Positions 28,331 through 53,443 of a stretch of 64,000 nucleotides of DNA are shown piece by piece. The notes under the pieces were generated by a model. The model made no database searches, was not told the DNA's origin, and saw nothing but the letters and a program-made list of their open reading frames with translations. The stretch's first letter is position 1, and each line of letters opens with the position of its first letter. A program made the position numbers and the translations under genes. Source of the stretch: a virus; IMG/VR virus record IMGVR_UViG_3300045972_000138, positions 127,513 to 191,512 of that record; one strand, given 5' to 3'.

Positions 28331-28346
28331 TAGCAGGTGATACAGT

Positions 28347-28373
28347 GTAAGGGGCTACGGCCCCTTACCTTTT
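28347..28373 (+). terminator. rho-independent terminator
   Basis: TAAGGGGC-tacg-GCCCCTTA then CCTTTT. Confidence 0.5.
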
Positions 28374-28400
28374 GACATAAAATTAAATATAGTTTATAAT
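28372..28400 (+). promoter_or_regulatory. sigma70 promoter TTGACA-N17-TATAAT
   Basis: consensus hexamers; followed by conserved leader TAACTTTTAAGGATTATATG (28412-28431). Confidence 0.6.
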
Positions 28401-28428
28401 TAGATATCACTTAACTTTTAAGGATTAT

Positions 28429-28755
28429 ATGAAAGACGGTTTAATTTTTGGATTCAATGCAATAGTTGCTGTTATTGCACTGGTCTTCGGTATTGGTGCG
28501 TTGTCGTACGGTATGTACGCATATTTTGCACCAAAGTACACAGCAGTTGACAATCAGGTGTTCCACGAGTCGCAGCAATACAATGACGGAATGATCCGTG
28601 ATTTGGAAAACTTGCAAATGGAATATCTTAGCGCAGATGCTGACAAGAAGGATGCAATCCGCGCAATAGTGTTGCATCGCTTTAGTGTGTATCCGGAAGA
28701 TAAGATGCCGCCAAATCTCCGTAACTTTTACAATCAACTTAAATCTGGAAAGTAA
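28429..28755 (+). CDS. small membrane protein
   Basis: N-terminal TM LIFGFNAIVAVIALVFGIGALSY. Confidence 0.6.
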   Translation: MKDGLIFGFNAIVAVIALVFGIGALSYGMYAYFAPKYTAVDNQVFHESQQYNDGMIRDLENLQMEYLSADADKKDAIRAIVLHRFSVYPEDKMPPNLRNFYNQLKSGK

Positions 28756-28758
28756 ACA

Positions 28759-29265
28759 ATGAAATCTCTACTCAAACTCGCGGCACTTCTTAGCGTAGCA
28801 GCACTGGCGCTGTCTGGTTGTTACGAAGATAACAGCAGCCATGCCAAAGAAGCAGCACAGCAAGAACAGTTAAATCTGCAAGCAGTGCAGGCAGTCGGTA
28901 TGCCAGCTATTACTAATTTTGCCGAACGCCGTATGATGAAAGACATCCTGGAACTGCGCGATAAGGATGTGGCCACCACAACATACACTCGCGATATGAA
29001 TGGCCGTCTGCACAAGATTTGCGATAGCGTAGGATATGGATTGCCATACGCAACGCAATTCACCAATCCGCAGACTGAACACTATGTACCCGGATCGGCA
29101 GGTCATTGGTCAATCCTACCACAAGCTGACCCAAACGGTTTGTACAGCCCTGCGGCAGCAGAAGGCACGTGGGTGATGTGTGTTAATCATAAGACTGGCA
29201 AACCAGCACCTGTGTATATTGAAGATCGCGTAACTGTGTCTCCAATGGAACTTGAATCTAATTAA
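28759..29265 (+). CDS. lipoprotein
   Basis: signal peptide with lipobox LSGC. Confidence 0.6.
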   Translation: MKSLLKLAALLSVAALALSGCYEDNSSHAKEAAQQEQLNLQAVQAVGMPAITNFAERRMMKDILELRDKDVATTTYTRDMNGRLHKICDSVGYGLPYATQFTNPQTEHYVPGSAGHWSILPQADPNGLYSPAAAEGTWVMCVNHKTGKPAPVYIEDRVTVSPMELESN

Positions 29266-29283
29266 TTTAACTGAAAGATTATT

Positions 29284-30138
29284 ATGTCAGAACTCGTAGT
29301 ACAATCATCTGTTGATGAACAAAAGAAGCAGCAATTTATTACATACGCAAAATGGGGTGTGATTGTTGCGGCCTGTGCGGTAGCACTACCCGTGGTAGTG
29401 TTTGGTGCGCTGGGAATGGTAGGCATTATGATTGCCGGCGGCATCGGATTGGTTGGTATCAATGCAGCACCTGTTGTTGCGCTGAAGCTTGCTAATATGA
29501 AGTACCGCCTAATGGATGCTGAAAAAGTGCAGCACATTGAAAAAGTGCAGCAAGCGGCAGCAGAAAATCCGATTGAAACTGCGGTAACACAGTCGCAAGC
29601 GTTTAAGGCACGTGGGGTGAAACAACTCGAAGCTATTACTGCATACGGTACTGAAGTTAACAACTTCGAAACTATGGTTGCCGGATTTGCAAAGAAGTAC
29701 CCTGAGCAGGTAAATCGCTATAAACAGCAACTTGATGTAATGAAGCAAGCACTTCAATTCAAGCAAGACAAGTATTCTGAACTACAGAAGAATATTAAGA
29801 AGATGGACGAAGAAATCGAATTCTTGCGTGCCAACTGGAAGATGAGTCAAGCATTGCAAAAGGCTAATGCATTGGCTGGCATGGATACTGAAGATCCAAT
29901 GGCACAACTGAAAACTGACGCAGCAATTGACGCTGTGGTGAATTCAATCAACCGTGCGTTTGCTGAAATGGATTCTGCAGTGTTGTCTGATGCTGCACAA
30001 TCCGGTAAAGGTACTATCACAGGTCGTGCTACAATGCTTAACGATGCCCCTGGTATGCAAGCATTGGAAAACAATCCGTCACAGACATTGGGTCTTGTGA
30101 CAATGGAAACTGTATCACAAAAGAAAGTAGGTGCGTAA
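29284..30138 (+). CDS. membrane protein with coiled-coil region
   Basis: two TM helices near N-terminus; 284 aa. Confidence 0.6.
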   Translation: MSELVVQSSVDEQKKQQFITYAKWGVIVAACAVALPVVVFGALGMVGIMIAGGIGLVGINAAPVVALKLANMKYRLMDAEKVQHIEKVQQAAAENPIETAVTQSQAFKARGVKQLEAITAYGTEVNNFETMVAGFAKKYPEQVNRYKQQLDVMKQALQFKQDKYSELQKNIKKMDEEIEFLRANWKMSQALQKANALAGMDTEDPMAQLKTDAAIDAVVNSINRAFAEMDSAVLSDAAQSGKGTITGRATMLNDAPGMQALENNPSQTLGLVTMETVSQKKVGA

Positions 30139-31155
30139 ATGAAAAAGATTCTAGTAGCATTGGCTCTGTTTGCTGTAGCAGCATTCGCAGAACCATCATT
30201 TGAACAAATGCAAGAACTGATTGGCCAGAAGAACTATGCGGCTGCAGAACAGGGATTGGAAGTTATTCTCCAAGCACACCCAACTTCTGCCAAAGCATTC
30301 TACTCGATGTCGCAAGCACAGGCTGGACTTGGCCACCTGGATAAGGCACAGCTTGCACTAAACAAGGCACGCGGACTCGATCCTTCGCTGAAGTTTGCAA
30401 GCGAAGATAATATCAAGGCACTGGAGCAAGCAATTACTCCACAAGCGGCAAAGATTGAAGCAGTTGAGCCAAGTCACTTTTGGCGCAATTTGATTTTGGT
30501 GCTGATTGGTGTGATTGCAGGTGTTGCATTCTACTTCTATCGCAAGAAAGACAGGCCCGCTGATGAAAAGGTAATCTTCCCAACACCGCCTGATGCACAA
30601 CCAGCATATGACAGCCCTAGCGATAAGGCTTATATGGAAGAGCACAACTTGAATGATGCTATCAAAGAAAGCTACACACCAAAGAAGCGTGGTCGCCCTG
30701 CTAAGGTTACGCCAGCCCCTGTAGCAACACCGTCACCGTCTGCATATGTTCGTACATACACACCGGCACCTACTCCGGTGTATCAGGCGCCACCCCAGCC
30801 AGTTATTGTTAACAATAACAGTGGTAGCGATATGTTGACAGGTGTAATGATTGGCAGTATGATGAATAACAATCATCACGATCGCACAACGGTTATTGAA
30901 CGTGAAGTGATTGTGGAACGTCCGAGCCGCAGCACGTATGTGGCACCCGAGCCAGCATATGAAGCACCTGCACCGAGCCGTAGCAGTTCCTGGGATGATA
31001 CTCCTGCAAAGAGTTCAAGCTGGAACGATGATAGCTCTAGCAAGTCTAGCAGCTGGGGCAGTAGCTCAAGCAGCGATAGCAGCAGTAGCTGGTCTAGCAG
31101 CGATAGCAGCTCGTCGAGCAGCAGCGACAGCGGATCTTCTAGTAGCTGGGATTAA
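30139..31155 (+). CDS. secreted/membrane TPR-like protein with Ser-rich low-complexity tail
   Basis: signal peptide, TM helix LILVLIGVIAGVAFYFY, KKRGRPAKV motif, tail SSSWSSSDSSSSSSSDSGSSSSWD. Confidence 0.6.
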   Translation: MKKILVALALFAVAAFAEPSFEQMQELIGQKNYAAAEQGLEVILQAHPTSAKAFYSMSQAQAGLGHLDKAQLALNKARGLDPSLKFASEDNIKALEQAITPQAAKIEAVEPSHFWRNLILVLIGVIAGVAFYFYRKKDRPADEKVIFPTPPDAQPAYDSPSDKAYMEEHNLNDAIKESYTPKKRGRPAKVTPAPVATPSPSAYVRTYTPAPTPVYQAPPQPVIVNNNSGSDMLTGVMIGSMMNNNHHDRTTVIEREVIVERPSRSTYVAPEPAYEAPAPSRSSSWDDTPAKSSSWNDDSSSKSSSWGSSSSSDSSSSWSSSDSSSSSSSDSGSSSSWD

Positions 31156-31156
31156 T

Positions 31157-31414
31157 ATGGTATTCTTAGACTTGGTCGTAGCAGTATTAGTATTGTGCAT
31201 AATGATACTATTACTGACACAGGTAATAACACCTGTACTATTTGGAACACCGTTTTTCCCATTGTTCCGAAAATCCACAGAACTTAAAAAGGAAGTGGAT
31301 GCATTAGAGCTAACTCTCGAAGAAAAGGAAGAGTTAGTATTGTTGAAGATGAAACTTAGTAAATTAAAGGCTCGTGAAGCCGAACTTGAAAGTAAAGAAA
31401 ATGGCACAACTTAG
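31157..31414 (+). CDS. small membrane protein with coiled coil
   Basis: ATG 31157 two nt after upstream stop; TM MVFLDLVVAVLVLCIMILLL. Confidence 0.4.
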   Translation: MVFLDLVVAVLVLCIMILLLTQVITPVLFGTPFFPLFRKSTELKKEVDALELTLEEKEELVLLKMKLSKLKAREAELESKENGTT

Positions 31415-32636
31415 TATCTCCCCTAAACGCACTATTATCGCAGCAGCGTCTGCAATTGGTGCATTGTTTCTAATCATCTTTGTGGTGTTCTTGTTCAAGA
31501 ATGTCGATGCAAAGGATTATGTGGTTATCCAGGCACCAATCAGCGGTGAGCTGTCAGTTCATACAGACGGTGGATGGAAGTGGCAAGGTATGGGCAAGTC
31601 CCAAACTTATCACCGACGTGACCAGTTCAGCTTTAGCAATAAAGTTGATCAAGGTAAAGCAGGTGACGAATCCATTAGCACACGGTTTAACGATGGCGGC
31701 CACGGTAACATTTCTGGTACAGTGAATTGGCAAATGCCCGCAAGTCCAGACTTGATTATCAAGTTGCACAAAGACTTCGGTAGCATGGATGCAATTGAAC
31801 AACAATTGATTCGTCCTGCAATGCAAAAGGTTATCTACAATGTAGGCCCAACAATGTCCTCAACAGAATCTAGTGCTGAAAAGCGTCCTGAGATTCCAAA
31901 GTATATCGACGACCAACTTGTTAACGGTCCTTACTTGACTAAGACTGTTAATGTTACGCAAAAGGATGCAATCTCCGGGCAAGACAAAGTTGTTCCGGTA
32001 GTGCAAATTGCGTTGAATGACAAAGGTCAACCGATGCGTGAAAGCAAGTCGCAGATCACCGAATACGGCATTGTTTTGCAACCTGTAGCAATCAATGCAA
32101 TCGTGTACGACACTGTAGTTGAAGATCAGATTAAACAGCGTCAAACTGCAACTACGCAAGTACAGATTTCTATTGCTAATGCACGTAAGGCTGAACAGGA
32201 AGCAATTACTACAGAACAGCAAGGTAAGGCCAATGCCGCTAAAGCTAAGTGGGAACAGGAAACAGTGAATGCAAAGGATGTTGCATTGGCTGAAAAGGAA
32301 CTGCAAGTTGCTACATTGGCCGCAAAGACTGCTGAACAATCAAAACGTGAAAACATCTTGATTGGTGAAGGTGAAGCTGCTCGTAAGCGTCTGGTAATGG
32401 AAGCTAACGGTGCGTTGGATGCTAAGTTAGCTGCATATGTGGATGTAAACAAGGCCTATGCCGAAGCTATCTCCAAAGCACAACCTGGCGCATGGTCTCC
32501 ACAAGTTGTAATGGGTGGCGGAGCAAGCGGTGCTAACACATCTAACTCGCTTATCGAAATGCTGACTGCTAAGACAGCTCGCGAACTCGGAGTTGATATG
32601 TCAGTTATCAAGGGCAATACCGCTAAAACTAAGTAA
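31374..32636 (+). CDS. SPFH/band-7 (HflK/C, flotillin-like) membrane protein
   Basis: N-terminal TM, SPFH-like core, long Ala/Glu/Lys coiled coil; GTG start. Confidence 0.65.
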   Translation: MKPNLKVKKMAQLSISPKRTIIAAASAIGALFLIIFVVFLFKNVDAKDYVVIQAPISGELSVHTDGGWKWQGMGKSQTYHRRDQFSFSNKVDQGKAGDESISTRFNDGGHGNISGTVNWQMPASPDLIIKLHKDFGSMDAIEQQLIRPAMQKVIYNVGPTMSSTESSAEKRPEIPKYIDDQLVNGPYLTKTVNVTQKDAISGQDKVVPVVQIALNDKGQPMRESKSQITEYGIVLQPVAINAIVYDTVVEDQIKQRQTATTQVQISIANARKAEQEAITTEQQGKANAAKAKWEQETVNAKDVALAEKELQVATLAAKTAEQSKRENILIGEGEAARKRLVMEANGALDAKLAAYVDVNKAYAEAISKAQPGAWSPQVVMGGGASGANTSNSLIEMLTAKTARELGVDMSVIKGNTAKTK

Positions 32637-32656
32637 GACTATTATCGGTAGACATT

Positions 32657-32693
32657 AAAGCCCATACTGCTATAATACGCATATGGGCTTTTT
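32657..32693 (+). terminator. rho-independent terminator; loop holds a TGCTATAAT extended -10
   Basis: 10-bp stem AAAGCCCATA/TATGGGCTTT then TTT. Confidence 0.6.
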
Positions 32694-32716
32694 AACACAC
32701 AGAAACGGAGTTATAT

Positions 32717-33814
32717 ATGGGTAAGATTATTGGTTCGGTAGCATTCCTTATTGCTATTATTGTTGGTGGTTACTTTGCTGATCCGGGGTTCCACGAAAAG
32801 GTTAACGGTATGCTGGGCAAAGGTGGTGCACAGGTTTCTGCCGTGCGTACTACGCAAACAGAACCAACTGCGTGGGAAGCAAAGAAAGGTTCTACACTGT
32901 CTAACATCATCGATAGCGGTGTGGTACATGCAAGCGTACAGGATCCTAGCAAGCCGTTCTACTACAAAGAAGGCGCACGTGCCAAAGGTTTCAATGTTGA
33001 CTTTATGAACATCTTGTTCGCTCAAAACGAATTCAGAACCAAGGTGGGAATTAAAGTTGAAGCAAGTGCAGTGGATTCGTATCCCGATGTACCGAAGCAA
33101 TTGCTTGATGGTAAGAAGGTTGATATTGCAATTGACGGCCTTACATTCAATGATGAAGACTTGAAGGGTGTGAAGTACACAATTCCTTATGTGAAGGACT
33201 TTGGTTACGCACTAATTACTCCTAAAGGTGTAAATGTAAACAATGTTGCTGACTTGGCTGGTGCAAAGGTTGGTATCATTAAAGGCGATCCGGATGTAAA
33301 ATCCTTTGTCGAAGGTGCTTTTCCTGGTGCTACTATTGTTGAAGTGTCTGACAAAGCAGACGAATCCGGCAAGTTTATTGCAGGCCACTTTAAAGCACAT
33401 CGTATCGACGCAATGGTTTATGACTATCCGTTTGCTGTAGCAGAAGTTGAAGGCACTAACCTGCAGTTTGCAATGACAAAGATCAAAGGTAGCGACATCC
33501 AGTATCGCATTGGTGTACGTGACGAAGATAAGGACTTGTTGGCAGCATTGAACGGTGCTATCCGTAAGGCAATGGATACGCCCGAATATACAGAAATGCT
33601 GAAACAATACTTTATGAGCAACAGTGTTGCGGCTGTACGCCGTGCAAGTTCCGGTGAAGTTAGCTATGTAGTGGTTAAGGGCGACACACTGAGCACTATT
33701 GCAGCATCGCAACTTGGTGACTTGAAGCGTTATCCGGATATCCAGGCACGTAATAACTTGGCCAACCCCAACTTTATTGCAGTTGGACAAAAGTTGATTA
33801 TTCCTAGCAAGTAA
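32717..33814 (+). CDS. solute-binding-protein-like domain fused to C-terminal LysM
   Basis: N-terminal TM; SBP_bac_3-like core; C-terminal YVVVKGDTLSTIAASQLGD...GQKLIIP LysM. Confidence 0.65.
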   Translation: MGKIIGSVAFLIAIIVGGYFADPGFHEKVNGMLGKGGAQVSAVRTTQTEPTAWEAKKGSTLSNIIDSGVVHASVQDPSKPFYYKEGARAKGFNVDFMNILFAQNEFRTKVGIKVEASAVDSYPDVPKQLLDGKKVDIAIDGLTFNDEDLKGVKYTIPYVKDFGYALITPKGVNVNNVADLAGAKVGIIKGDPDVKSFVEGAFPGATIVEVSDKADESGKFIAGHFKAHRIDAMVYDYPFAVAEVEGTNLQFAMTKIKGSDIQYRIGVRDEDKDLLAALNGAIRKAMDTPEYTEMLKQYFMSNSVAAVRRASSGEVSYVVVKGDTLSTIAASQLGDLKRYPDIQARNNLANPNFIAVGQKLIIPSK

Positions 33815-33817
33815 TTG

Positions 33818-33846
33818 TTGACTGCCCCTAAGGCCCGTGTTACAAT
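33818..33846 (+). promoter_or_regulatory. sigma70-like promoter TTGACT-N17-TACAAT
   Basis: upstream of rtcB ATG 33884 with AAGG RBS. Confidence 0.5.
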
Positions 33847-33883
33847 AATATGTAACGCGGGCTTTATTCTATTTAAGGTATAT

Positions 33884-35077
33884 ATGGAAATCAATAATGT
33901 AAAAATGTGGGTAGGTGATATGGAAGTTGAAGAAGCTGCTATTCAGCAGATTATGAATATTTCCCAATTGCCTATTCTTGCCGGACATATGGCTATTATG
34001 CCAGACGTTCATATGGGCAAGGGTGCAACAGTTGGTTCTGTTATTCCTACACGTTCCGCTATTATTCCTGCCGCAGTAGGTGTGGATATTGGTTGCGGTA
34101 TGATTGCTGCAATGACAAACCTTAAGGCAGAAGATCTTCCAACATCATTGTTCTCCTTGCGTAATGCAATTGAACGTGATGTACCTGTAGGCTTCAACGA
34201 GCACGACAAGGGTATCCCTTCTGTGTCGGGTCCTTATGCAGATATCCTGCGTAAGAATCTACGCAAGACAATGGATGACTTCGATACACTAACATTGAAG
34301 AAGAATTTGGGTCGTGCTGACGAAAAGAAGATTGCACGCCAGATTGGTACGCTAGGTGGCGGTAACCACTTTATCGAAATTTGTCTTGATACACAAAATC
34401 GTGTGTGGATTATGCTGCACTCTGGATCACGTGGCATCGGTAACCAAATTGGTACAGTTGCAATTGAACTGGCAAAGGAACAGGCTGCAAAGCGTGCATG
34501 GGGTCTCCCAGATCAGGATCTTGCTTGGTTGGATGAAGGCACACCGGAATTCGAAGCCTACATTGAAGCTATGCATTGGGCGCAGGATTATGCACGTTTC
34601 AATCGCGACACAATGATGAACTTGGTTGTGGCAGCAATGCTGCGTAAGTTTCCTACAATGAAGATTTTGGGCGAAGTGGTAAACTGCCATCACAACTTTA
34701 CAAGCCTGGAAGAACACTTTGGTACAAAGATGTGGATTACTCGTAAGGGTGCTGTATCTGCTAAACAAGGGCAAATGGGTATTATTCCTGGTTCGATGGG
34801 TGCTAAGTCGTTTATTGTGCAAGGCAAGGGTAATCACGATTCGTACTGCTCTTGCTCACACGGCGCAGGCCGCAAAATGAGCCGTAATCAGGCGAAAAAA
34901 CTGTTCGACGTTGCAGCTATGGAAGCGCAGACGCAAGGCATCGAGTGCCGCAAGGACTCGGGTGTTATTGACGAGATTCCTGCAGCATACAAAGACATCG
35001 ATCAAGTTATGGCAGCACAATCTGAATTGGTTGATGTAGTGCATACGCTGAAGCAGGTGCTCTGCGTTAAAGGTTAA
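33884..35077 (+). CDS. rtcB: RNA-splicing ligase RtcB
   Basis: VKMW...MPDVHMGKGATVGSVIPT...AAVGVDIGCGM, GGGNHFIEI, CSCSHGAGRKMSR; start at internal ATG 33884. Confidence 0.9.
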   Translation: MEINNVKMWVGDMEVEEAAIQQIMNISQLPILAGHMAIMPDVHMGKGATVGSVIPTRSAIIPAAVGVDIGCGMIAAMTNLKAEDLPTSLFSLRNAIERDVPVGFNEHDKGIPSVSGPYADILRKNLRKTMDDFDTLTLKKNLGRADEKKIARQIGTLGGGNHFIEICLDTQNRVWIMLHSGSRGIGNQIGTVAIELAKEQAAKRAWGLPDQDLAWLDEGTPEFEAYIEAMHWAQDYARFNRDTMMNLVVAAMLRKFPTMKILGEVVNCHHNFTSLEEHFGTKMWITRKGAVSAKQGQMGIIPGSMGAKSFIVQGKGNHDSYCSCSHGAGRKMSRNQAKKLFDVAAMEAQTQGIECRKDSGVIDEIPAAYKDIDQVMAAQSELVDVVHTLKQVLCVKG

Positions 35078-35078
35078 T

Positions 35079-35297
35079 ATGCAACGCTGGGGACCTACCT
35101 TGTGGTTGTTTAGCAAAGAAGAGTTTGATAAACTACCTAACGGATTTGTACTGACATCAATAAATGGTACGAAGAAGACCAAAGGTGTCGATAGTATAGA
35201 TACAGATGTAAGGTGGGGCCATATTGCATGGGGTGTAGAAGATCCAATGAATCACCCCGAAGCTGAATTATTCACAGTGTTTAGATTGGAAGCATAA
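35079..35297 (+). CDS. hypothetical small protein
   Basis: ATATGC junction; 72 aa. Confidence 0.35.
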   Translation: MQRWGPTLWLFSKEEFDKLPNGFVLTSINGTKKTKGVDSIDTDVRWGHIAWGVEDPMNHPEAELFTVFRLEA

Positions 35298-35473
35298 TGG
35301 AAGATATTGATAAGACACACGCCACCCTTGTTTATGGATTGTGCGAAAAGTGCAACATAAATACTGGTACAGAAGGCCATACCTGCCCCTATGCAGAAGA
35401 TATTAACGGAGACTATCTGTCGGAATGCAATTGCTGCGATAGTTGCTGCAAAGATTGTGCAGACGACATTTAA
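35297..35473 (+). CDS. Cys-rich mini-protein (58 aa)
   Basis: CEKC...CPY...CNCCDSCCKDC; not in ORF track. Confidence 0.3.
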   Translation: MEDIDKTHATLVYGLCEKCNINTGTEGHTCPYAEDINGDYLSECNCCDSCCKDCADDI

Positions 35474-35477
35474 TCAG

Positions 35478-35506
35478 TTGACTAGACAAAAGTTTAGTCA
35501 TATAAT
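35478..35506 (+). promoter_or_regulatory. sigma70 promoter TTGACT-N17-TATAAT
   Basis: consensus; upstream of 35533. Confidence 0.6.
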
Positions 35507-35532
35507 AAACAAATAAACAAAAGAGGTTTTTA

Positions 35533-36732
35533 ATGGCCATTGATACATCGCCCGAAGCAGTGCTAGAACAACTAACTCGCGCACGAATTTCTTTGTTGTT
35601 GCAACAACCTTTCTGGGGCACACTTGCAACACGTCTTATTTTGAAAGACGCCACTGAAGAAGATTGGTGCCCAACAGCGGCAACAAACGGCAGATACTTT
35701 TACTACAATCGTAATTTTATCTCCAAACTCAACAAGCAAGAATGCATCTTCCTTGTAGCGCACGAAGTTGAACACTGTGTTTACGATCACATGGATCGTC
35801 GTGGTGGTCGTGCAGCAAAACGCTGGAATGCAGCAGCAGACTACGTTATCAATTATGAACTGCATGAATACAACATTGGTAAGATTCCAGATCCAAAGAC
35901 ATCTGGTGTACAGGCCTGCTTTGATCCAAAGTACAAAGGAATGTTTGCTGAAGAAGTATACGAACAACTTACAGACGATCAAAAGTTTCCAGAGTTCGAT
36001 GTTCACCTGGAGCCAGGTGATGGCAAGGGTGATCCGATGTCGGAAGACGAACAGCGCGAATTGAGCGATGAAATCCGTAATGCCGTTATGCAGGCAGCAA
36101 AGAGCGCAGGTGCTGGCAAGGTTCCTGCAGGTGTGCGTCGTATGCTCAAGGATCTTACCGAACCACAAATGGATTGGCGTGAAATCTTGAATATGAAGAT
36201 TCAATCTATGGTTAAGAGCGACTTTACCTGGGATCGTTGCTCGCGTAAGATGCAGAGCACTGGTATCTATTTGCCATCAACAAAGAATGACTTCAAGGCT
36301 CGTGCAGCAGTAGCAATCGATGCATCCGGATCTATGGGCGATAATATGTTGCGTGATTTGCTTGGCGAAACCAAAGGCATCATGGAACAGTTCAACGATT
36401 TTGAACTTGATGTGTGGACATTTGATACAAAGGTATACAACCCTGTACGTTTCACACCCGACAATATTGATGAAATCGATACATACGATATTAAGGGCGG
36501 CGGTGGTACTGACTTTGATGTCAACTTTGCTTACATGAAGGAAGCTGGGTTGGAACCAGAACGCTTTATTATGATGACAGACGGATACCCTTGCGGTAGC
36601 TGGGGCGACGAATTTTACTGCGATACATTGTTCCTTATCCACGGTGACCCACATCACAAGTTAGTTGCACCGTTTGGTATGACAGCATGGTACGAACCAG
36701 ATAGTCATTCACCGCAAAACAAGAAGAAATAA
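35533..36732 (+). CDS. VWA-domain protein with N-terminal HExxH metallopeptidase-like domain
   Basis: VAHEVEHCVYDH; MIDAS motif AIDASGSMGD; probable partner of MoxR ATPase. Confidence 0.7.
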   Translation: MAIDTSPEAVLEQLTRARISLLLQQPFWGTLATRLILKDATEEDWCPTAATNGRYFYYNRNFISKLNKQECIFLVAHEVEHCVYDHMDRRGGRAAKRWNAAADYVINYELHEYNIGKIPDPKTSGVQACFDPKYKGMFAEEVYEQLTDDQKFPEFDVHLEPGDGKGDPMSEDEQRELSDEIRNAVMQAAKSAGAGKVPAGVRRMLKDLTEPQMDWREILNMKIQSMVKSDFTWDRCSRKMQSTGIYLPSTKNDFKARAAVAIDASGSMGDNMLRDLLGETKGIMEQFNDFELDVWTFDTKVYNPVRFTPDNIDEIDTYDIKGGGGTDFDVNFAYMKEAGLEPERFIMMTDGYPCGSWGDEFYCDTLFLIHGDPHHKLVAPFGMTAWYEPDSHSPQNKKK

Positions 36733-51110: not shown

Positions 51111-51276
51111 ACACTCAGCAGTGTGAGTGCAGTCCTATATAGTAGGCATACAAATAAGTCCTACTATATTTTATGCAGATAATGCTTGCTAGAGTCATAA
51201 ATAAGTGCTACAATAAGCACTTAGCAAAACAAATAGTTGATCGCAACTGTTTGTGGTAAGTTCTTTAACAAAATAT

Positions 51277-51363
51277 GCGAGTGTGGCGAAATAGGTAGAC
51301 GCAACAGACTTAAAATCTGTCGGGGGCAACTTCATGCCGGTTCGATTCCGGCCACTCGCACCA
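51277..51363 (+). tRNA. tRNA-Leu (anticodon TAA), type II long variable arm, CCA encoded
   Basis: acceptor GCGAGTG/CACTCGC perfect; anticodon stem ACAGA/TCTGT loop CTTAAAA; T-arm GCCGG-TTCGATT-CCGGC; 15-nt variable arm. Confidence 0.85.
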
Positions 51364-51518
51364 TAGTTTATGTCCCTGTCGGTGGAGAGCGACACCTCCG
51401 CGCTTAACGGCAATGCAGAAATGCAAAGGATACGAAAGTATCAAGGGACTCCAATTTTAAGGGATACTTACAGCAATTTTAATTCACCGTAAATGAAACC
51501 AAAAAGGTATCCTGTTTA

Positions 51519-51593
51519 GCCCTTGTAGCAGAGTGGTAATGCACGCGCCTTGTAAGCGCGGGATCTGGTGTTCGATTCACCACGAGGGCACCA
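51519..51593 (+). tRNA. tRNA-Thr (anticodon TGT), CCA encoded
   Basis: acceptor GCCCTTG/CGAGGGC; anticodon stem CGCGC/GCGCG loop CTTGTAA; T-arm TGGTG-TTCGATT-CACCA. Confidence 0.8.
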
Positions 51594-51684
51594 TATTAGA
51601 ATGCACTAACTGAGTACAAGGCTCAGCGTGCGAATTCAGTAACTAAGCCTCAAGAGGAAGCTATAGTGCATTCTAATATGGTGT
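51589..51684 (+). repeat. long hairpin H1 of the CCATAT...ATATGG family (16-bp stem, 59-nt loop); 5' arm starts on the CCA of tRNA-Thr
   Basis: CATATTAGAATGCAC / GTGCATTCTAATATG perfect. Confidence 0.8.
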
Positions 51685-51790
51685 GTTGATCGTTAAATCA
51701 AAAAGTAAAGCGAAGTACAAGCTAGCCAATAGACCCGCGAACGTACTTAGAATCGTTCATGACAGTGAAAGCCTGTAAGGGGAGATTAAC

Positions 51791-51859
51791 ATACCATATT
51801 AGAACACACTACGACTCTAACGAGGGCTGGTTCACCGGTAGTGTGTTCTAATATGGTAT
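51791..51859 (+). repeat. long hairpin H2 (20-bp stem, 29-nt loop)
   Basis: ATACCATATTAGAACACACT / AGTGTGTTCTAATATGGTAT. Confidence 0.8.
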
Positions 51860-51928
51860 ACCGATAGCCCAAAGATAAGAGGCAAGTATAATTACTGACA
51901 GTGCAGGTTAGATTCCTGTTCGGATACT

Positions 51929-52073
51929 ACCATATTAAACTACATTCGTTGATCGGTGAGCCCAGGGCAGATCCGCAAATGTCGAAGTGTTGTTACACAC
52001 AGTTTCGGTCCTTGCCATATAGTGCTTGGTATCGGGTAAGACGGTTTAATTCCGCAGTGTAGTTTAATATGGT
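51929..52073 (+). repeat. long hairpin H3 (15-17-bp stem, ~110-nt loop)
   Basis: CCATATTAAACTACA / TGTAGTTTAATATGG. Confidence 0.75.
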
Positions 52074-52190
52074 GATGTAATGTCCTCGCAAGGGACTGTG
52101 GCAGAGCAACGCGGATCGTTATACGGCAATGCTCAAGAGAATGCAACCACATGGGGCAAGAGTAAGTGAACGTGAGTAACCGATTACCTC

Positions 52191-52317
52191 TACCATATCA
52201 ATCCGCAAAGCTCTTGCGACGGGGCTTTACAGGACGGGAATTGACCCGAAACGTGTCGCAGCGTTGGCATCTGGTAAGGATGCATAGCCTGAATTAACAG
52301 GGCGGATTGATATGGTG
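52191..52317 (+). repeat. long hairpin H5 (15-bp stem, 95-nt loop)
   Basis: ACCATATCAATCCGC / GCGGATTGATATGGT. Confidence 0.75.
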
Positions 52318-52858
52318 TGCTAAGTTAAGTGCCTTAAACTGAAAGAGAATGAAAAGTAGAATTGCAGCTAATGTAGCCTGGCCAGGTACGGCATTAGACG
52401 TTCTAGTTAGTAGATTTCTGGAGGGGTAGTTTAGTGTAATAGGAGCACGCAACCTTTATGGCGCCGAAGAACGGTGCGATACCGTGGCTATTAAAGGTGC
52501 TTAACTTAGATTTCCGAAGCTTGTAATCAAGCCTGACACGACAGCATAACGTGGGTTGGACCTTAGCCAAGTAAAAATATTAAGGTGCAGTATTGCCATG
52601 CATAGAAGTGTGATAGTTTACGGGGCGGAGTTCTTAAAACTACCCTGGTATGGTCCTAATCATTAGGCCAAAGAAAGTGTTGTTAACGACACCAAAGTCA
52701 TCCTAGACTGGAAAAACTAGGGTGCATATATTTTAAAGATTTGCCTCAGTACCTCAGTGGATTTGTGATTGTACTACTTTAAAGGAACGTTTAGTAGGGA
52801 TTGCACTTTAAAGACGAATGCTTCTTCTTGCACAGATGCGCGATCTGGAATGGTTTTA

Positions 52859-52932
52859 GTTGAAGTCAATACTGTAGAGGGCCGGATTTCTAATCCGAAA
52901 GTCGGGGGTTCGATTCCTTCCTGCGGCACCAT
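52859..52932 (+). tRNA. degenerate tRNA-like element (T-arm + CCA, TCT anticodon-like loop); possible tRNA-Arg pseudogene
   Basis: GGGGG-TTCGATT-CCTTC T-arm, CTGCGGC-A-CCA 3' end, CCGGA-TTTCTAA-TCCG loop; no canonical 5' acceptor strand or D-arm found. Confidence 0.25.
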
Positions 52933-53002
52933 ATAGAAACACATTTCCGACAGTAGGCGGAGGTGACAATGTCCATTCGGGTGAATGTGTTTCTATATGG
53001 TA
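52929..53002 (+). repeat. long hairpin H4 (18-bp stem, 38-nt loop); 5' arm starts on CCA of the tRNA-like element
   Basis: ACCATATAGAAACACATT / AATGTGTTTCTATATGGT. Confidence 0.8.
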
Positions 53003-53292
53003 TGAAGCGTACTGTAACACTTAGTGGGAAAGCGCCTTCTGTTGTATATGATTTAGCAACTCACCTCTGGTAAATCACGACAGGAGAAAGTTACAGCCAT
53101 TTTTATTATGGTAAATGCGGAGACTGATCCGCGAGTTAGGTTGCGTCACCGGGTGGCTTATTTTGCCAAGATCACATCAGATTGAGGCTACACTCCTACC
53201 GCGGAAATTGGGTGATGTCCGAGGGTCTGAAGCGTAAGATGAGTAGTAGGAAAATCTAAATAATGCAGGAGATCAGTACCTGTTACCATTTT

Positions 53293-53431
53293 TATAGAAA
53301 GCTTCCTGAGTAGCTACACTGGAACAACTGAAATACTAATGCCAGCCCCGAAAAAAGTGGGAAAGTTTCTTAGGACCAGCCAGGAAGAGTAGGGCTACCA
53401 CGAATTCGAGCGTCACAGGAAGCTTTCTATA
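53293..53431 (+). repeat. long hairpin H6 (16-bp stem, 107-nt loop), shares TATAGAAA with H4
   Basis: TATAGAAAGCTTCCTG / CAGGAAGCTTTCTATA. Confidence 0.7.
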
Positions 53432-53443
53432 GATAAATACTGT

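What the first reader, a model, noticed from the sequence alone, without database searches (positions are those of the whole stretch)
51589..53431. Family of six long hairpins (15-20 bp perfect stems, 29-110 nt loops) interleaved with tRNAs, with compensatory covariation between copies
Each element starts with CCATAT(T/A/C)A... and ends with ...T(A/T/G)ATATGG. The inner stem sequences differ between copies, yet each 3' arm exactly matches its own 5' arm (H1 TAGAATGCAC, H2 TAGAACACACT, H3 TAAACTACA, H4 AGAAACACATT, H5 CAATCCGC, H6 TATAGAAAGCTTCCTG). That covariation argues selection is on the structure, as for RNA, and not on the sequence. H1 and H4 begin exactly on the encoded CCA of tRNA-Thr and of the tRNA-like element, so the stem includes the tRNA 3' end. 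None is followed by a U-tract, so they are not terminators. They could be 3'-end processing or RNase III signals in a polycistronic tRNA transcript, stable small RNAs, or remnants of a structured mobile element. I do not recognise this arrangement from known phage tRNA regions.
Basis: seen in the sequence. Interest (0 to 1): 0.85.

Follow-up and report, generated by a model that had tools for sequence, protein, structure and literature searches.

The report
Clamp-stem small RNAs in phage tRNA operons
The six long hairpins are real and belong to an apparently undescribed, widespread family of phage RNA elements that start on the CCA end of a tRNA gene and use one conserved 18-bp stem to enclose many different small structured RNAs.

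Summary
Five hairpins (15-22 bp perfect stems) begin ACCATAT and end ATATGGT. A sixth lacks those ends. They lie in a 2.3-kb non-coding tRNA operon of a new jumbo-type phage.

They are not peculiar to this phage. One pattern scan of IMG/VR found at least 119 loci carrying the same tRNA-CCA hairpin inside large tRNA arrays. The stem consensus is ACCAUAUAAAAACACAUU / AGUGUGUUUCUAUAUGGU.

The stem is conserved in sequence as well as structure. It covaries, and it tolerates G.U only on the tRNA strand (136 G.U against 2 A.C cells), so it folds as a single strand of tRNA polarity, most simply RNA. Loops are highly varied (4-182 nt, over 100 kinds). Three window loops (H3, H4, H6) recur in unrelated phages, and two (H3, H6) have their own covarying helices.

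Nothing matches in Rfam, cultured phages or cellular genomes, apart from six contigs of freshwater metagenome-assembled genomes (MAGs).

Best reading: small RNA cassettes held in a common clamp helix that continues the upstream acceptor stem. tRNA-processing enzymes, and probably a double-strand-specific RNase, would excise them. The processing mechanism is inferred, not shown.

The hairpins are not terminators, MITEs, ribozymes or known Y RNAs.

The parts
51186..51214 (+). Sigma-70-like promoter (TTGCTA, 17-nt spacer, TG-TACAAT) upstream of the tRNA operon
   Evidence: Consensus scan, 9 of 12 matches with an extended -10. Prediction only.
51261..51271 (+). boxA-like element (G)TTCTTTAACAA(AA), ending 5 nt before tRNA-Leu. 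It resembles the antitermination boxA of rRNA operons.
   Evidence: Only exact copy in the window. In the IMG/VR loci the same motif occurs 51 times on the tRNA strand and 10 on the other, typically after a promoter and a small hairpin and about 25 nt before the first tRNA. The boxA function is inferred from my own knowledge of rrn leaders.
51277..51363 (+). tRNA-Leu(UAA)
   Evidence: ARAGORN. Rfam 62.7 bits.
51455..51518 (+). Member of a second inter-tRNA spacer family: (CCA)AUUUUAAGGGAUAC..CAGCAA..GGUAUCCUGUUUAG. It runs from an NCCA to the first base of tRNA-Thr.
   Evidence: Homologous to L024 and L126. The RGGAT..CAGCAA motif occurs 94 times on the tRNA strand and once on the other in the loci.
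51519..51593 (+). tRNA-Thr(UGU). Its C72-A73-CCA forms the first bases of H1.
   Evidence: ARAGORN. Rfam 65.4 bits.
51589..51683 (+). H1 clamp hairpin: 20 bp perfect stem, 55-nt cargo
   Evidence: z -7.5. Stem profile score -1.9, p 0.005 against random perfect stems.
51684..51790 (+). Spacer X1. Its ends pair (GUGUUGAUC with GAUUAACAU), followed by ACCA. Not a recognised tRNA.
   Evidence: Inverted repeat I3. Fold. The last base before the discriminator is paired.
51791..51859 (+). H2 clamp hairpin: 22 bp perfect stem, 25-nt cargo
   Evidence: z -7.7. Covariance model built only from IMG/VR arms: 24-25 bits, E about 1e-3. Profile score 8.0.
51858..51932 (+). Spacer X2: a 75-nt degenerate tRNA-like element with a T-arm-like GCAGGUUAGAUUCCUGU, ending in ACCA
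   Evidence: Fold. Not called by ARAGORN or Rfam.
51929..52073 (+). H3 clamp hairpin: 18-bp stem including U17.G, with a 109-nt conserved tRNA-like cargo
   Evidence: The cargo is found in 8 IMG/VR contigs with canonical clamps. It has invariant blocks and a T-arm-like hairpin next to the 3' strand. The 5' arm is also present in the related locus L137.
52074..52195 (+). Spacer X3, ending in a small helix followed by ACCA
   Evidence: Fold. No homologue in the fetched loci.
52192..52316 (+). H5 clamp hairpin: 15 bp perfect stem, 95-nt cargo with four predicted inner hairpins. The stem matches the family only at the ACCAUAU/AUAUGGU ends.
   Evidence: z -6.5. Profile score -17.8, p 0.23. No cargo homologue.
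52317..52858 (+). Spacer X4: a 540-nt non-coding stretch with a long-range stem (52320-52338 with 52491-52509)
   Evidence: No Rfam hit at E up to 1.
52859..52928 (+). Degenerate tRNA-like element. The T-arm and the 3' acceptor strand are intact. The anticodon loop resembles UCU (my reading of the sequence).
   Evidence: Rfam tRNA 26.5 bits, below the 29-bit threshold. The 3' half is similar to tRNAs in many loci.
52928..53001 (+). H4 clamp hairpin: 18 bp perfect stem that matches the family consensus closely (ACCAUAUAGAAACACAUU), with a 38-nt cargo
   Evidence: z -6.6. Profile score 12.9. 83-86% identical to L019, L116 and L121, and L077 (82%) shares the cargo; in L019, L077 and L116 it follows tRNA-Lys(UUU).
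53002..53292 (+). Spacer X5. It begins AUGAAGCG, close to the UGUAUGAAGC seen after hairpins in 6 loci.
   Evidence: (repeat D11).
53293..53431 (+). H6: 16 bp perfect stem with about 100 nt of cargo. It lacks the outer ACCAUAU pairing.
   Evidence: z -3.6. The cargo is homologous to L129:20-182 (a related phage) and to L058:5036-5178. Both have ACCATATG 5' arms, and the L058 copy closes with ...CCATATGGT. 14 pairs covary among the 3 sequences.

Best explanation
**What they are.** The hairpins are RNA elements transcribed as part of a long, antiterminated, polycistronic tRNA operon. Each has two parts.
- A clamp helix of about 18-22 bp. Its 5' strand starts at the discriminator and encoded CCA of the preceding tRNA, tRNA-like element or minihelix. 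Its 3' strand ends in UGGU, often at or inside the first bases of the next tRNA.
- A cargo loop of 4-180 nt. It differs between copies but is itself a conserved, structured small RNA in the sub-families examined. Some cargoes are tRNA-like, with a T-arm next to the 3' strand.

**How they probably work (inferred).**
- Because the clamp begins at position 73, it can stack on the acceptor stem of the upstream tRNA.
- RNase P cleavage at the next tRNA would define the 3' side.
- An endonuclease acting at or just after CCA would free the tRNA 3' end and the 5' side. The likeliest candidate is a double-strand-specific enzyme of the RNase III type acting on the clamp, as in the processing stems of rRNA operons.
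- The product would be a clamp-closed small RNA whose ends are protected from exonucleases.
- The conserved stem sequence and the conserved mismatch at base pair 9 suggest a specific protein recognises the clamp.

**My probabilities for the separate claims.**
- A single-stranded fold of tRNA-strand polarity, most simply RNA, belonging to a widespread phage family: about 0.9.
- The cargo is functional and not merely a spacer: about 0.7.
- Excision by RNase P plus a double-strand-specific RNase: about 0.4.
For: **Shown: the family is widespread**
- Those loci hold 2058 tRNAs, all on the hairpin strand.
- 161 of 204 hairpin calls start exactly on an encoded CCA. In 64, the next tRNA starts at or inside the 3' arm.
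- Stem positions 8-18, which the search pattern did not fix, are conserved.

**Shown: the stem is under selection as a fold**
- On 137 distinct arm pairs, 91.3% of cells are paired.
- 340 cells have changes on both sides, against 125 in shuffles (0 of 500 shuffles reach the observed value).
- The covariation score is 0.346, against 0.14 shuffled and at most 0.10 when the partners are slid.

**Shown: strand asymmetry**
- At positions 8 and 10-18 there are 136 G.U cells and 2 A.C cells. Excluding position 17, the counts are 59 and 2.

**Shown: operon context**
- A promoter-like site and a boxA-like leader lie on the same strand.
- No terminator follows any hairpin.

**Shown: the cargo is conserved**
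- H3 cargo: 7 aligned sequences share invariant blocks, inner helices (one with compensatory changes) and a T-arm-like hairpin.
- H6 cargo: 14 covarying pairs among 3 phages.
- H4 cargo: 83-86% identical in contigs whose flanking proteins show no similarity to the window.
- Other loop sub-families are listed.

**Shown: what precedes hairpins that lack an upstream tRNA call**
- They follow degenerate tRNAs or a minihelix plus NCCA.
- The base before the discriminator is paired in 15 of 36 cases, against 47 of 300 at random control positions.

**Shown: restricted to viruses**
- There are only 6 hits among 185,579 species genomes, all on freshwater MAG contigs.

**Inferred from established knowledge**
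- RNase III accommodates about 22 bp and leaves 2-nt 3' overhangs (PMC6212723).
- From my own knowledge: RNase III cuts the long stems that enclose 16S and 23S rRNA in boxA-antiterminated rrn operons, and RNase P separates polycistronic tRNAs.
Against: - There is no transcript or cleavage data of any kind. The processing enzymes are inferred.
- No RNase III or other obvious RNA-processing nuclease was found among the window ORFs I scanned. The host is unknown.
- RNase III rarely needs a specific sequence, so the strong sequence conservation of the stem is not explained by processing alone.
- In the window all stems are perfect Watson-Crick, so the strand evidence comes from homologues, not from this phage.
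- H5 matches the family only at its 7-bp ends.
- H1, H2 and H5 cargoes have no detected homologues.
- A G.T-tolerant fold of single-stranded DNA of the same polarity is not formally excluded.
- The loci were selected by a pattern that required a tRNA and fixed ends. Frequencies such as 88 of 203 hairpins following tRNA-Lys(UUU) are therefore biased.
Confidence: 0.55

Rival explanations
1. The hairpins are pure processing spacers. The clamp is only an RNase III-type (or similar) cleavage site that separates tRNAs, and the loops are neutral filler.
For: - The stems are 18-22 bp and lie between co-transcribed tRNAs. They include the CCA and often the first bases of the next tRNA.
- Loops range from 4 to 182 nt and share no common motif.
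- The operon leader resembles that of rrn operons.
- RNase III accommodates about 22 bp (PMC6212723).
Against: - Loop sub-families are conserved across unrelated phages, some with invariant blocks and helices kept by compensatory changes.
- The H4 cargo is 83-86% identical where flanking genes share nothing.
- Most tRNA junctions in the same arrays manage with 2-10 nt spacers and no hairpin.
Confidence: 0.2
2. The hairpins are Y-RNA-like or tRNA-mimic ribonucleoprotein scaffolds or decoys. A protein (Ro60-like or other) binds the clamp with its conserved mismatch. The cargoes, some of them tRNA-like, recruit or distract tRNA-acting enzymes or host tRNA-targeting defence nucleases.
For: - The stem is sequence-conserved, with a mismatch at base pair 9 (A.C or C.A in 63 of 132 arm pairs).
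- That mismatch is enriched after tRNA-Lys(UUU): 61 of 79 against 25 of 88 elsewhere.
- T-arm-like hairpins lie next to the 3' strand in the H3 cargo and in others.
- The hairpins follow Lys(UUU), Glu(UUC) and Lys(CUU) tRNAs far more often than other tRNAs.
- The window encodes RtcB.
- Bacterial Y RNAs pair a closing stem with a tRNA-like domain and occur in phages (PMC4201824). Some jumbo phages encode TROVE proteins (PMC7824862).
Against: - The YrlA Ro-binding motif GNCGAAN0-1G is not present in the clamp consensus.
- There is no Rfam Y RNA hit at E up to 1.
- No TROVE protein was found among the scanned window ORFs.
- Most cargoes are not tRNA-like.
- The bias towards tRNA-Lys may reflect one orthologous junction sampled many times.
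Confidence: 0.12
3. The hairpins are DNA-level elements: MITE-like insertions that target tRNA 3' ends, or attC-like or PeSL-like recombination boundaries whose conserved arms allow cassettes to be swapped between phages.
For: - The arms are conserved while the loops are unrelated. The same cargo turns up in otherwise unrelated phages.
- ATAT is both a direct and an inverted flank, and an uninterrupted ACCA-TAT-GG junction exists between tRNA-Lys(CUU) and tRNA-Lys(UUU).
- In L137 an ORF sits directly after an H3-type 5' arm, and the best candidate partner 3' arm lies about 700 nt further on.
- Homing endonuclease genes lie within the arrays.
Against: - The 136 G.U against 2 A.C asymmetry shows selection on a fold of one strand, not on duplex terminal repeats.
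- Copies within a genome do not share internal sequence.
- No empty-site polymorphism was seen at tRNA-Lys genes that lack hairpins.
- No transposase or integrase lies next to the region.
- The ends do not match the attC core GTTRRRY.
- Exchange by recombination at the arms could still be how cargoes spread, alongside an RNA function.
Confidence: 0.08
4. The hairpins are transcription terminators or attenuators, or self-cleaving ribozymes that trim tRNA 3' trailers (as the theta ribozymes do).
For: - They are stable hairpins directly 3' of tRNAs.
- Theta ribozymes occupy the same position in gut phages and are proposed to process tRNA 3' trailers (PMC10879173).
Against: - No U-tract follows any hairpin, and co-oriented tRNAs follow directly.
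- The loops share no conserved catalytic core.
- No ribozyme family matches in Rfam.
- tRNAs linked to theta ribozymes mostly lack an encoded CCA (4.5% have one, PMC10879173). Here the CCA is encoded and paired.
Confidence: 0.03

Closest known systems
Processing stems of bacterial rRNA operons (RNase III substrates enclosing 16S and 23S rRNA, in boxA-antiterminated operons that also carry tRNAs). From my own knowledge, plus PMC6212723.
   Same: - A long helix formed by the sequences flanking a functional RNA.
- Location inside a long untranslated polycistronic transcript next to tRNAs.
- A boxA-like leader upstream.
- A stem length that fits the roughly 22-bp RNase III footprint.
   Different: - The enclosed RNA is 4-180 nt and differs from copy to copy.
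- The stem is sequence-conserved and begins exactly at the tRNA discriminator and CCA.
- No cleavage has been shown.
tRNA-miRNA-encoded RNAs (TMERs) of murine gammaherpesvirus 68: a tRNA-like element followed directly by one or two hairpins that tRNase Z releases. From my own knowledge.
   Same: - A viral tRNA or tRNA-like element followed immediately by hairpins.
- The tRNA 3'-end machinery defines the 5' end of the hairpin.
- Several units are clustered together.
   Different: - TMERs are eukaryotic RNA polymerase III transcripts whose hairpins feed the miRNA pathway, and their CCA is added after cleavage.
- Here the CCA is encoded and is part of the stem, and the loops are large and structured.
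HDV-like theta ribozymes next to phage tRNAs (PMC10879173)
   Same: A structured RNA placed directly 3' of phage tRNA genes. It was found only by metagenome mining and is proposed to act in 3'-trailer processing.
   Different: - Theta elements have a conserved ribozyme core, occur in gut phages, and sit next to tRNAs that mostly lack an encoded CCA.
- The clamp hairpins have no common core, come from freshwater phages, and pair with the encoded CCA.
Bacterial Y RNAs (YrlA) bound by Ro60/Rsr (PMC4201824)
   Same: - A closing stem formed by the 5' and 3' ends, combined with a tRNA-like module that includes a T-arm.
- They occur in phages and are often linked to RtcB.
   Different: - The clamp has no GNCGAAN0-1G motif.
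- No rsr gene lies nearby and there is no Rfam match.
- Most cargoes are not tRNA-like.
- The elements are embedded in tRNA arrays, not placed beside rsr.
Phage T4 stable RNAs species 1 and 2 (rnaC, rnaD), encoded in the T4 tRNA cluster. From my own knowledge.
   Same: Small stable RNAs of unknown function, co-transcribed and co-processed with phage tRNAs in a T4-type phage.
   Different: I detected no sequence or structural similarity. T4 has two such RNAs, not a scaffold family with over 100 cargoes.

Membership tests
tRNA-CCA clamp hairpins of phage tRNA arrays (family defined here from IMG/VR loci) | The 5' strand starts at the discriminator and encoded CCA of a tRNA, tRNA-like element or minihelix on the same strand | tested here: met
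   - H1 starts on tRNA-Thr and H4 on a weak tRNA-like element.
- H2, H3 and H5 follow segments that end in ACCA.
- H6 follows ACCAUUUUU, but the CCA is not in its stem.
- In the loci, 161 of 204 hairpin calls start on an encoded CCA.
tRNA-CCA clamp hairpins of phage tRNA arrays (family defined here from IMG/VR loci) | Terminal pairing of ACCAUAU with AUAUGGU | tested here: met
   Met by H1, H2, H3, H4 and H5. Not met by H6.
tRNA-CCA clamp hairpins of phage tRNA arrays (family defined here from IMG/VR loci) | Stem positions 8-19 match the family pair profile (consensus ..AAAACACAUU / AGUGUGUUU..) | tested here: inconclusive
   - Profile built from 107 IMG/VR arm cores: H4 12.9, H2 8.0 and H3 4.6 (p < 2e-4 against random perfect stems).
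- H1 scores -1.9 (p 0.005). H5 scores -17.8 (p 0.23).
- The arms-only covariance model detects H2 (24-25 bits) and H4 (13.5 bits). Long loops are penalised, so the others are missed.
tRNA-CCA clamp hairpins of phage tRNA arrays (family defined here from IMG/VR loci) | Cargo homologous to the cargo of a canonical family member | tested here: met
   - Met for H3 (8 contigs), H4 (L019, L077, L116, L121) and H6 (L058, L129).
- No homologue found for H1, H2 or H5.
Intrinsic (Rho-independent) terminators | A G+C-rich stem with a short loop, followed by a U-tract | tested here: not met
   No terminator-like site lies at any hairpin end. The flanks after 80 hairpins in the loci that have no tRNA within 12 nt downstream are A-rich or mixed.
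MITE or IS terminal inverted repeats | Multiple copies sharing internal sequence, target-site duplication with empty sites, and repeats with no strand bias | tested here: not met
   - Loops are unrelated within a genome.
- No empty sites were seen.
- There are 136 G.U cells against 2 A.C.
Integron attC sites | Core sites RYYYAAC and GTTRRRY at the ends, extrahelical bases, and an intI integrase nearby | tested here: not met
   The ends are ACCATAT and ATATGGT. No integrase was found among the ORFs flanking the region. The whole genome is not available.
Y RNA / YrlA | Ro-binding motif GNCGAAN0-1G in the stem, T- and D-arm-like stem-loops, and a gene next to rsr (PMC4201824) | tested here: not met
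   - The motif is absent from the clamp consensus.
- There is no Rfam hit.
- No TROVE protein was found in the scanned ORFs.
- A T-arm-like hairpin is present only in some cargoes.
HDV-like (theta) and other self-cleaving ribozymes | A conserved catalytic core or nested pseudoknot | tested here: not met
   No ribozyme family matches at E up to 1. The loops share no motif. Self-cleavage itself cannot be tested here.
RNase III processing stems | About 20-22 bp of dsRNA in a precursor, cut on both strands with a 2-nt stagger | not testable with these tools
   The stem length is met: 18-22 bp, plus possible coaxial stacking on the acceptor stem. Cleavage requires experiment.

The most novel reading that the evidence does not exclude
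Phage tRNA arrays may also be arrays of a second gene class. A universal 18-bp clamp, docked on a tRNA 3' end, would serve as an expression, processing and stability cassette for over 100 kinds of exchangeable small structured RNAs, some of them tRNA mimics. A dedicated protein would read the clamp. The cargoes would be swapped between unrelated phages by recombination at the conserved arms. They might act as decoys or regulators in the conflict over host tRNA-targeting defences, which would fit the strong link to tRNA-Lys(UUU) and tRNA-Glu(UUC).
Probability: 0.25. Interest if true: 0.9.

Novelty: new variant of a known kind. Interest (0 to 1): 0.72.

Why it matters
- Phage tRNA clusters are usually read as codon-usage or anti-defence tRNA supplies, and the DNA between the tRNAs is ignored.
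- Here that DNA holds a conserved, virus-specific RNA scaffold carrying a large and varied repertoire of structured small RNAs. It is present in at least 119 uncultured phage contigs and absent from Rfam and from cultured phages.
- If the clamp is a processing and stability module, it gives a natural bacterial-virus counterpart of tRNA-linked small-RNA expression. It would also be a ready-made design for expressing RNAs from tRNA operons.
- If the cargoes act against host defences or on translation, they would be a new layer of phage-host conflict.
- The family also supplies many new candidate structured RNAs for comparative and structural study. The H3-type and H6-type cargoes already show conserved folds.

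Tried and rejected
- **Similar phages.** Near and distant BLAST of the region against 50,697 phage records matched only the tRNAs. A canonical Lys-hairpin-Met unit also matched only a tRNA.
- **Flanking proteins.** Using them to fetch relatives from IMG/VR found nothing. The ligase did find relatives in JGI metagenomes, but their tRNA regions are largely rearranged.
- **Exact-protein look-up.** It returned only a contig identical to the window.
- **Rfam.** Searches of the window at E up to 1 and of 14 loci gave no family for the hairpins.
- **Covariance model.** A model built from the arms alone works only for short loops: H2 at E about 1e-3 and H4 at E 0.5. Long loops are penalised, so it cannot test membership of the others.
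- **H5 cargo.** A scan with a 17-mer from the cargo gave only two chance hits.
- **Partner protein.** No RNase III, RNase Z, CCA-adding enzyme or TROVE protein was found in about 40 window ORFs. The most recurrent neighbour in the loci, PF04308 RNaseH_like (26 loci), has no homologue in the window. The DUF2828/DUF7788 protein (9 loci) gave no PDB sequence match.
- **MoxR, vWA-peptidase and SPFH genes beside RtcB.** I considered these as RNA-repair partners. The literature assigns the MoxR-vWA pair of jumbo phages to virion assembly (PMC7824862), so I do not use them as evidence.
- **Literature.** Searches by sequence strings and by topic found no description of the element. The library is incomplete.
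- **Correction to my own counts.** My first hairpin call set included nested false calls, in which the G-rich 5' end of tRNA-Lys(UUU) pairs with the 3' arm through G.U. I removed these before the final statistics.

Full report
**1. Context**

The window is a phage.
- It has a T4-type family B DNA polymerase, 38-55% identical to those of jumbo phages such as Atu_ph07, PA5oct and RaK2.
- It also has a DNA ligase, RtcB, tail proteins and other phage genes.
- It has no close relative among 50,697 phage records. Neither of the two flanking proteins I tried found a relative in IMG/VR.
- A Logan contig is identical over 11.7 kb.

Positions 51127-53443 contain no credible ORF. This stretch carries:
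- a promoter-like site at 51186-51214;
- a boxA-like motif at 51261-51271;
- tRNA-Leu(UAA) at 51277-51363 and tRNA-Thr(UGU) at 51519-51593;
- a weak tRNA-like element at 52859-52928;
- the six hairpins.

**2. The observation**

| Hairpin | Coordinates | Stem | Loop | Fold z-score |
|---|---|---|---|---|
| H1 | 51589-51683 | 20 bp perfect | 55 nt | -7.5 |
| H2 | 51791-51859 | 22 bp perfect | 25 nt | -7.7 |
| H3 | 51929-52073 | 16 bp perfect, 18 with U.G | 113 nt | -3.2 |
| H5 | 52192-52316 | 15 bp perfect | 95 nt | -6.5 |
| H4 | 52928-53001 | 18 bp perfect | 38 nt | -6.6 |
| H6 | 53293-53431 | 16 bp perfect | 93 nt between the 23-nt arms | -3.6 |

- They are the longest perfect hairpins in the 64 kb.
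- Ten of the 22 ACCATAT sites in the window are their ends.
- H1 includes C72, A73 and the CCA of tRNA-Thr. H4 starts at the discriminator of the tRNA-like element.
- None is followed by a U-tract.
- H6 lacks the ACCATAT/ATATGGT ends.
- The segments between the hairpins are not recognisable tRNAs, but each ends in ACCA. X1 has paired ends and X2 has a T-arm-like hairpin.

**3. The hairpins belong to a widespread family**

I scanned IMG/VR with one pattern: a tRNA T-loop, 11 bases, ACCATAT, 50-80 bases, ATATGGT. Chance cannot explain this, because the bases the pattern left free are conserved and paired. The consensus is ACCAUAUAAAAACACAUU ... AGUGUGUUUCUAUAUGGU.

The loci are large tRNA arrays of T4-like phages.
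- They hold 2058 tRNAs in 1.03 Mb, all on the hairpin strand.
- RegA and clamp-loader genes lie nearby.
- After I removed nested false calls, 183 hairpins remained (159 distinct sequences), 40-218 nt long with a median of 86.
- 161 of the 204 original calls start exactly on an encoded CCA. In 64, the next tRNA starts at or inside the last bases of the 3' arm.
- The upstream gene is tRNA-Lys(UUU) in 88 cases, Glu(UUC) in 19 and Lys(CUU) in 14. The downstream gene is tRNA-Met(CAU) in 44. These frequencies are biased by the search pattern and by repeated sampling of related phages.
- Hairpins without an upstream tRNA call follow degenerate tRNAs or small helices plus NCCA.

The family is virus-specific and uncharacterised.
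- A clamp pattern without any tRNA requirement hit only 6 stretches in 185,579 bacterial and archaeal species genomes. All are on freshwater MAG contigs (Planktophila, Polynucleobacter, Lac Pavin and others).
- No cultured phage carries the unit.
- Rfam 15 has no matching family, even at E up to 1.

**4. The fold is selected on one strand**

On 137 distinct arm pairs:
- 91.3% of cells form standard pairs;
- 340 cells have changes on both sides, against 125 in shuffles (0 of 500 shuffles reach this);
- the covariation score is 0.346, against 0.14 shuffled and at most 0.10 when the partners are slid.

The decisive point is strand asymmetry. At positions 8 and 10-18 of 132 IMG/VR arm pairs there are 136 G.U cells and 2 A.C cells. 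Excluding the dominant U17.G, the counts are 59 and 2. A duplex-DNA element, or an RNA from the other strand, would show the reverse pattern or no bias. The simplest reading is an RNA hairpin in the tRNA transcript. A fold of single-stranded DNA of the same polarity is not formally excluded.

Base pair 9 is a conserved mismatch (A.C in 59 and C.A in 4 of 132). It is enriched after tRNA-Lys(UUU): 61 of 79 against 25 of 88 elsewhere.

**5. Membership of the window copies**

I scored stem positions 8-19 with a pair profile built only from IMG/VR arms, so the score is independent of the ACCAUAU ends.

| Hairpin | Profile score | p against random perfect stems |
|---|---|---|
| H4 | 12.9 | < 2e-4 |
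| H2 | 8.0 | < 2e-4 |
| H3 | 4.6 | < 2e-4 |
| H1 | -1.9 | 0.005 |
| H5 | -17.8 | 0.23 |

An arms-only covariance model finds H2 (24-25 bits) and H4 (13.5 bits). It penalises long loops and misses the rest.

Cargo homology adds independent support.
- **H4.** The cargo is 83-86% identical to L019, L116 and L121, and L077 (82% over 100 nt) shares it. In L019, L077 and L116 it follows tRNA-Lys(UUU).
- **H6.** The cargo matches L129 (a related phage) and L058. Both have ACCATATG 5' arms, and the L058 copy closes with ...CCATATGGT. 14 pairs covary among the three sequences.
- **H3.** The cargo occurs in 8 IMG/VR contigs with canonical clamps. It has invariant blocks and inner helices, one of which (the hairpin after the GCAGAUCCGCAAAUGUC block) keeps a pair through U-A to A-U exchange in 3 of the 7 aligned sequences. 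A T-arm-like hairpin sits directly before the 3' strand (GACGGUUCGAUUCCGU in L143).
- **The CCA positions covary too.** In L147 the CCA is CTA and its partner TGG is TAG, a compensatory change.

**6. The loops are cargo, not filler**

Loops fall into more than 100 clusters and share no motif. Within sub-families they are conserved, and the H3-type and H6-type cargoes show compensatory changes. Most tRNA junctions in the same arrays have only 2-10 nt spacers, so a hairpin is not needed simply to separate tRNAs.

**7. Mechanism**

Shown:
- The elements lie in co-oriented arrays behind promoter-like sites.
- A boxA-like motif (GUUCUUUAA[A/C]AA) occurs 51 times on the tRNA strand and 10 on the other, about 25 nt before the first tRNA. 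This is the layout of rRNA operon leaders.
- The clamp starts at position 73 of a tRNA-like helix and often ends in the first bases of the next tRNA.

Inferred:
- The clamp stacks on the acceptor stem.
- RNase P at the next tRNA sets the 3' side.
- A double-strand-specific endonuclease cuts the clamp near the CCA, as RNase III cuts the stems that enclose 16S and 23S rRNA. RNase III has a footprint of about 22 bp and leaves 2-nt overhangs (PMC6212723).
- Exonucleases then finish the tRNA 3' end.
- The clamp-closed cargo survives as a small RNA.

The sequence conservation and the base pair 9 mismatch point to an additional specific reader, which I did not identify. No RNase III was found in the window ORFs I scanned.

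**8. Rivals**

- **Processing spacer only.** Disfavoured because the cargo is conserved.
- **Y-RNA-like scaffold or tRNA-mimic decoy.** This fits the stem plus T-arm architecture and the tRNA-Lys link. The YrlA motif, rsr adjacency and an Rfam match are all absent (PMC4201824).
- **MITE or attC-like DNA element.** Disfavoured by the strand asymmetry, the unrelated loops and the lack of empty sites. Recombination at the arms may still explain how cargoes move between phages.
- **Terminators and ribozymes.** Excluded by the tests available here.

**9. Comparison with known systems**

The closest known systems are:
- rRNA processing stems;
- MHV68 tRNA-hairpin units;
- theta ribozymes 3' of phage tRNAs, where only 4.5% of the associated tRNAs encode CCA (PMC10879173);
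- bacterial Y RNAs;
- the T4 stable RNAs.

The clamp family shares the theme of a structured RNA riding on tRNA processing. It differs in three ways: its conserved CCA-anchored stem, its exchangeable cargo, and its restriction to uncultured freshwater phages.

**10. Verdict**

This is a real, non-random and apparently undescribed RNA family. Its function is unproven. I rate interest at 0.72.

Noticed in passing
window 51261-51271; IMG/VR loci L003-L076 (examples): A boxA-like motif (GTTCTTTAA[A/C]AA) follows a promoter-like site and a small hairpin and lies 5-30 nt before the first tRNA. It occurs 51 times on the tRNA strand and 10 on the other. Phage tRNA operons appear to use an rRNA-operon-style antitermination leader.
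   Followed up: partly
window 51455-51518; many loci: A second conserved inter-tRNA spacer family: CCA-(A)GUUUUAGGAUnnnnnCAGCAAA ... nnAUCCUGUUU, running from an NCCA to the next tRNA. The RGGAT..CAGCAA motif occurs 94 times on the tRNA strand and once on the other. It is not in Rfam; the only hit is a spurious Dicty_Class_I_RNA match at E 0.3.
   Followed up: partly
window 51371-51458: Between tRNA-Leu and the second-family spacer lies a cloverleaf-like fold. GUCCCU pairs with AGGGAC to close three hairpins, followed by UCCA. ARAGORN and Rfam do not call it a tRNA. It shares an ACGGCAAUGC..AUGCAA block with 52120-52150.
   Followed up: no
window 52317-52858: A 540-nt non-coding stretch between H5 and the tRNA-like element, with a long-range stem (52320-52338 with 52491-52509, 84% complementary). 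It has no Rfam hit and no homologue in the fetched loci.
   Followed up: no
window 27227-36732: A gene cluster containing a MoxR-type AAA ATPase, an SPFH/Band 7 protein, an SBP_bac_3-LysM protein, RtcB RNA ligase (E 7e-128) and a DUF2201 metallopeptidase-vWA protein. The literature links the MoxR-vWA pair of jumbo phages to virion assembly and RtcB to tRNA repair (PMC7824862).
   Followed up: partly
L137 2841-3058, 3065-3152, 4762-5840; L128 358-1031: In the nearest relatives found through the ligase gene:
- tRNA-Leu(UAA) is interrupted in its D-loop region by a group I intron-like insert (48.4 bits, E 1.7e-10);
- there are tRNAs with CUA and UCA anticodons (suppressor-like), which hints at stop-codon recoding;
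- an ORF with a GIY-YIG-like N-terminus (judged by eye, not scanned) sits in the array, and another ORF follows directly on an H3-type 5' arm.
   Followed up: partly
L058 6249-6711; L099 770-1060; L049 1244-1435: Other RNAs in the same arrays: a GOLLD RNA (197 bits) with a tRNA inside it, a permuted tmRNA (97.5 bits) and a group I intron (58.9 bits).
   Followed up: no
window 52968-53081 (L001 9060-9164): A short ORF of about 34-37 aa starts inside the H4 loop behind a strong Shine-Dalgarno-like GGAGGUGA and was called as a gene on the Logan contig. In the IMG/VR orthologues the ATG is kept, but the ORF is only about 14 codons and lacks the Shine-Dalgarno sequence, so it is probably not coding.
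   Followed up: partly
L077 12877-13028 and similar loci: The 5' end of tRNA-Lys(UUU), GGGGGUAUAACUU, preceded by ACCA-UAU from tRNA-Lys(CUU), can pair through G.U with the 3' clamp arm of the hairpin that follows tRNA-Lys(UUU). This alternative long-range helix would enclose the whole tRNA. It may be chance, because the 3' arm is U/G-rich.
   Followed up: no
IMG/VR loci: Proteins that recur near the arrays: PF04308 RNaseH_like/DUF458 (26 loci), a small Metallophos phosphoesterase (23), a DSP-type phosphatase (14), a cytidine/dCMP deaminase-like protein (12) and DUF2828/DUF7788 (9). None has a homologue in the window. They are candidates for RNA-end or tRNA-related functions.
   Followed up: partly
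window 52999-53011 and 53224-53236; 6 loci: A short module, GGUAUGAAGCGUA (GGUCUGAAGCGUA in the second copy), follows H4 and recurs 225 nt downstream. A similar UGUAUGAAGC directly follows clamp hairpins in several IMG/VR loci.
   Followed up: no
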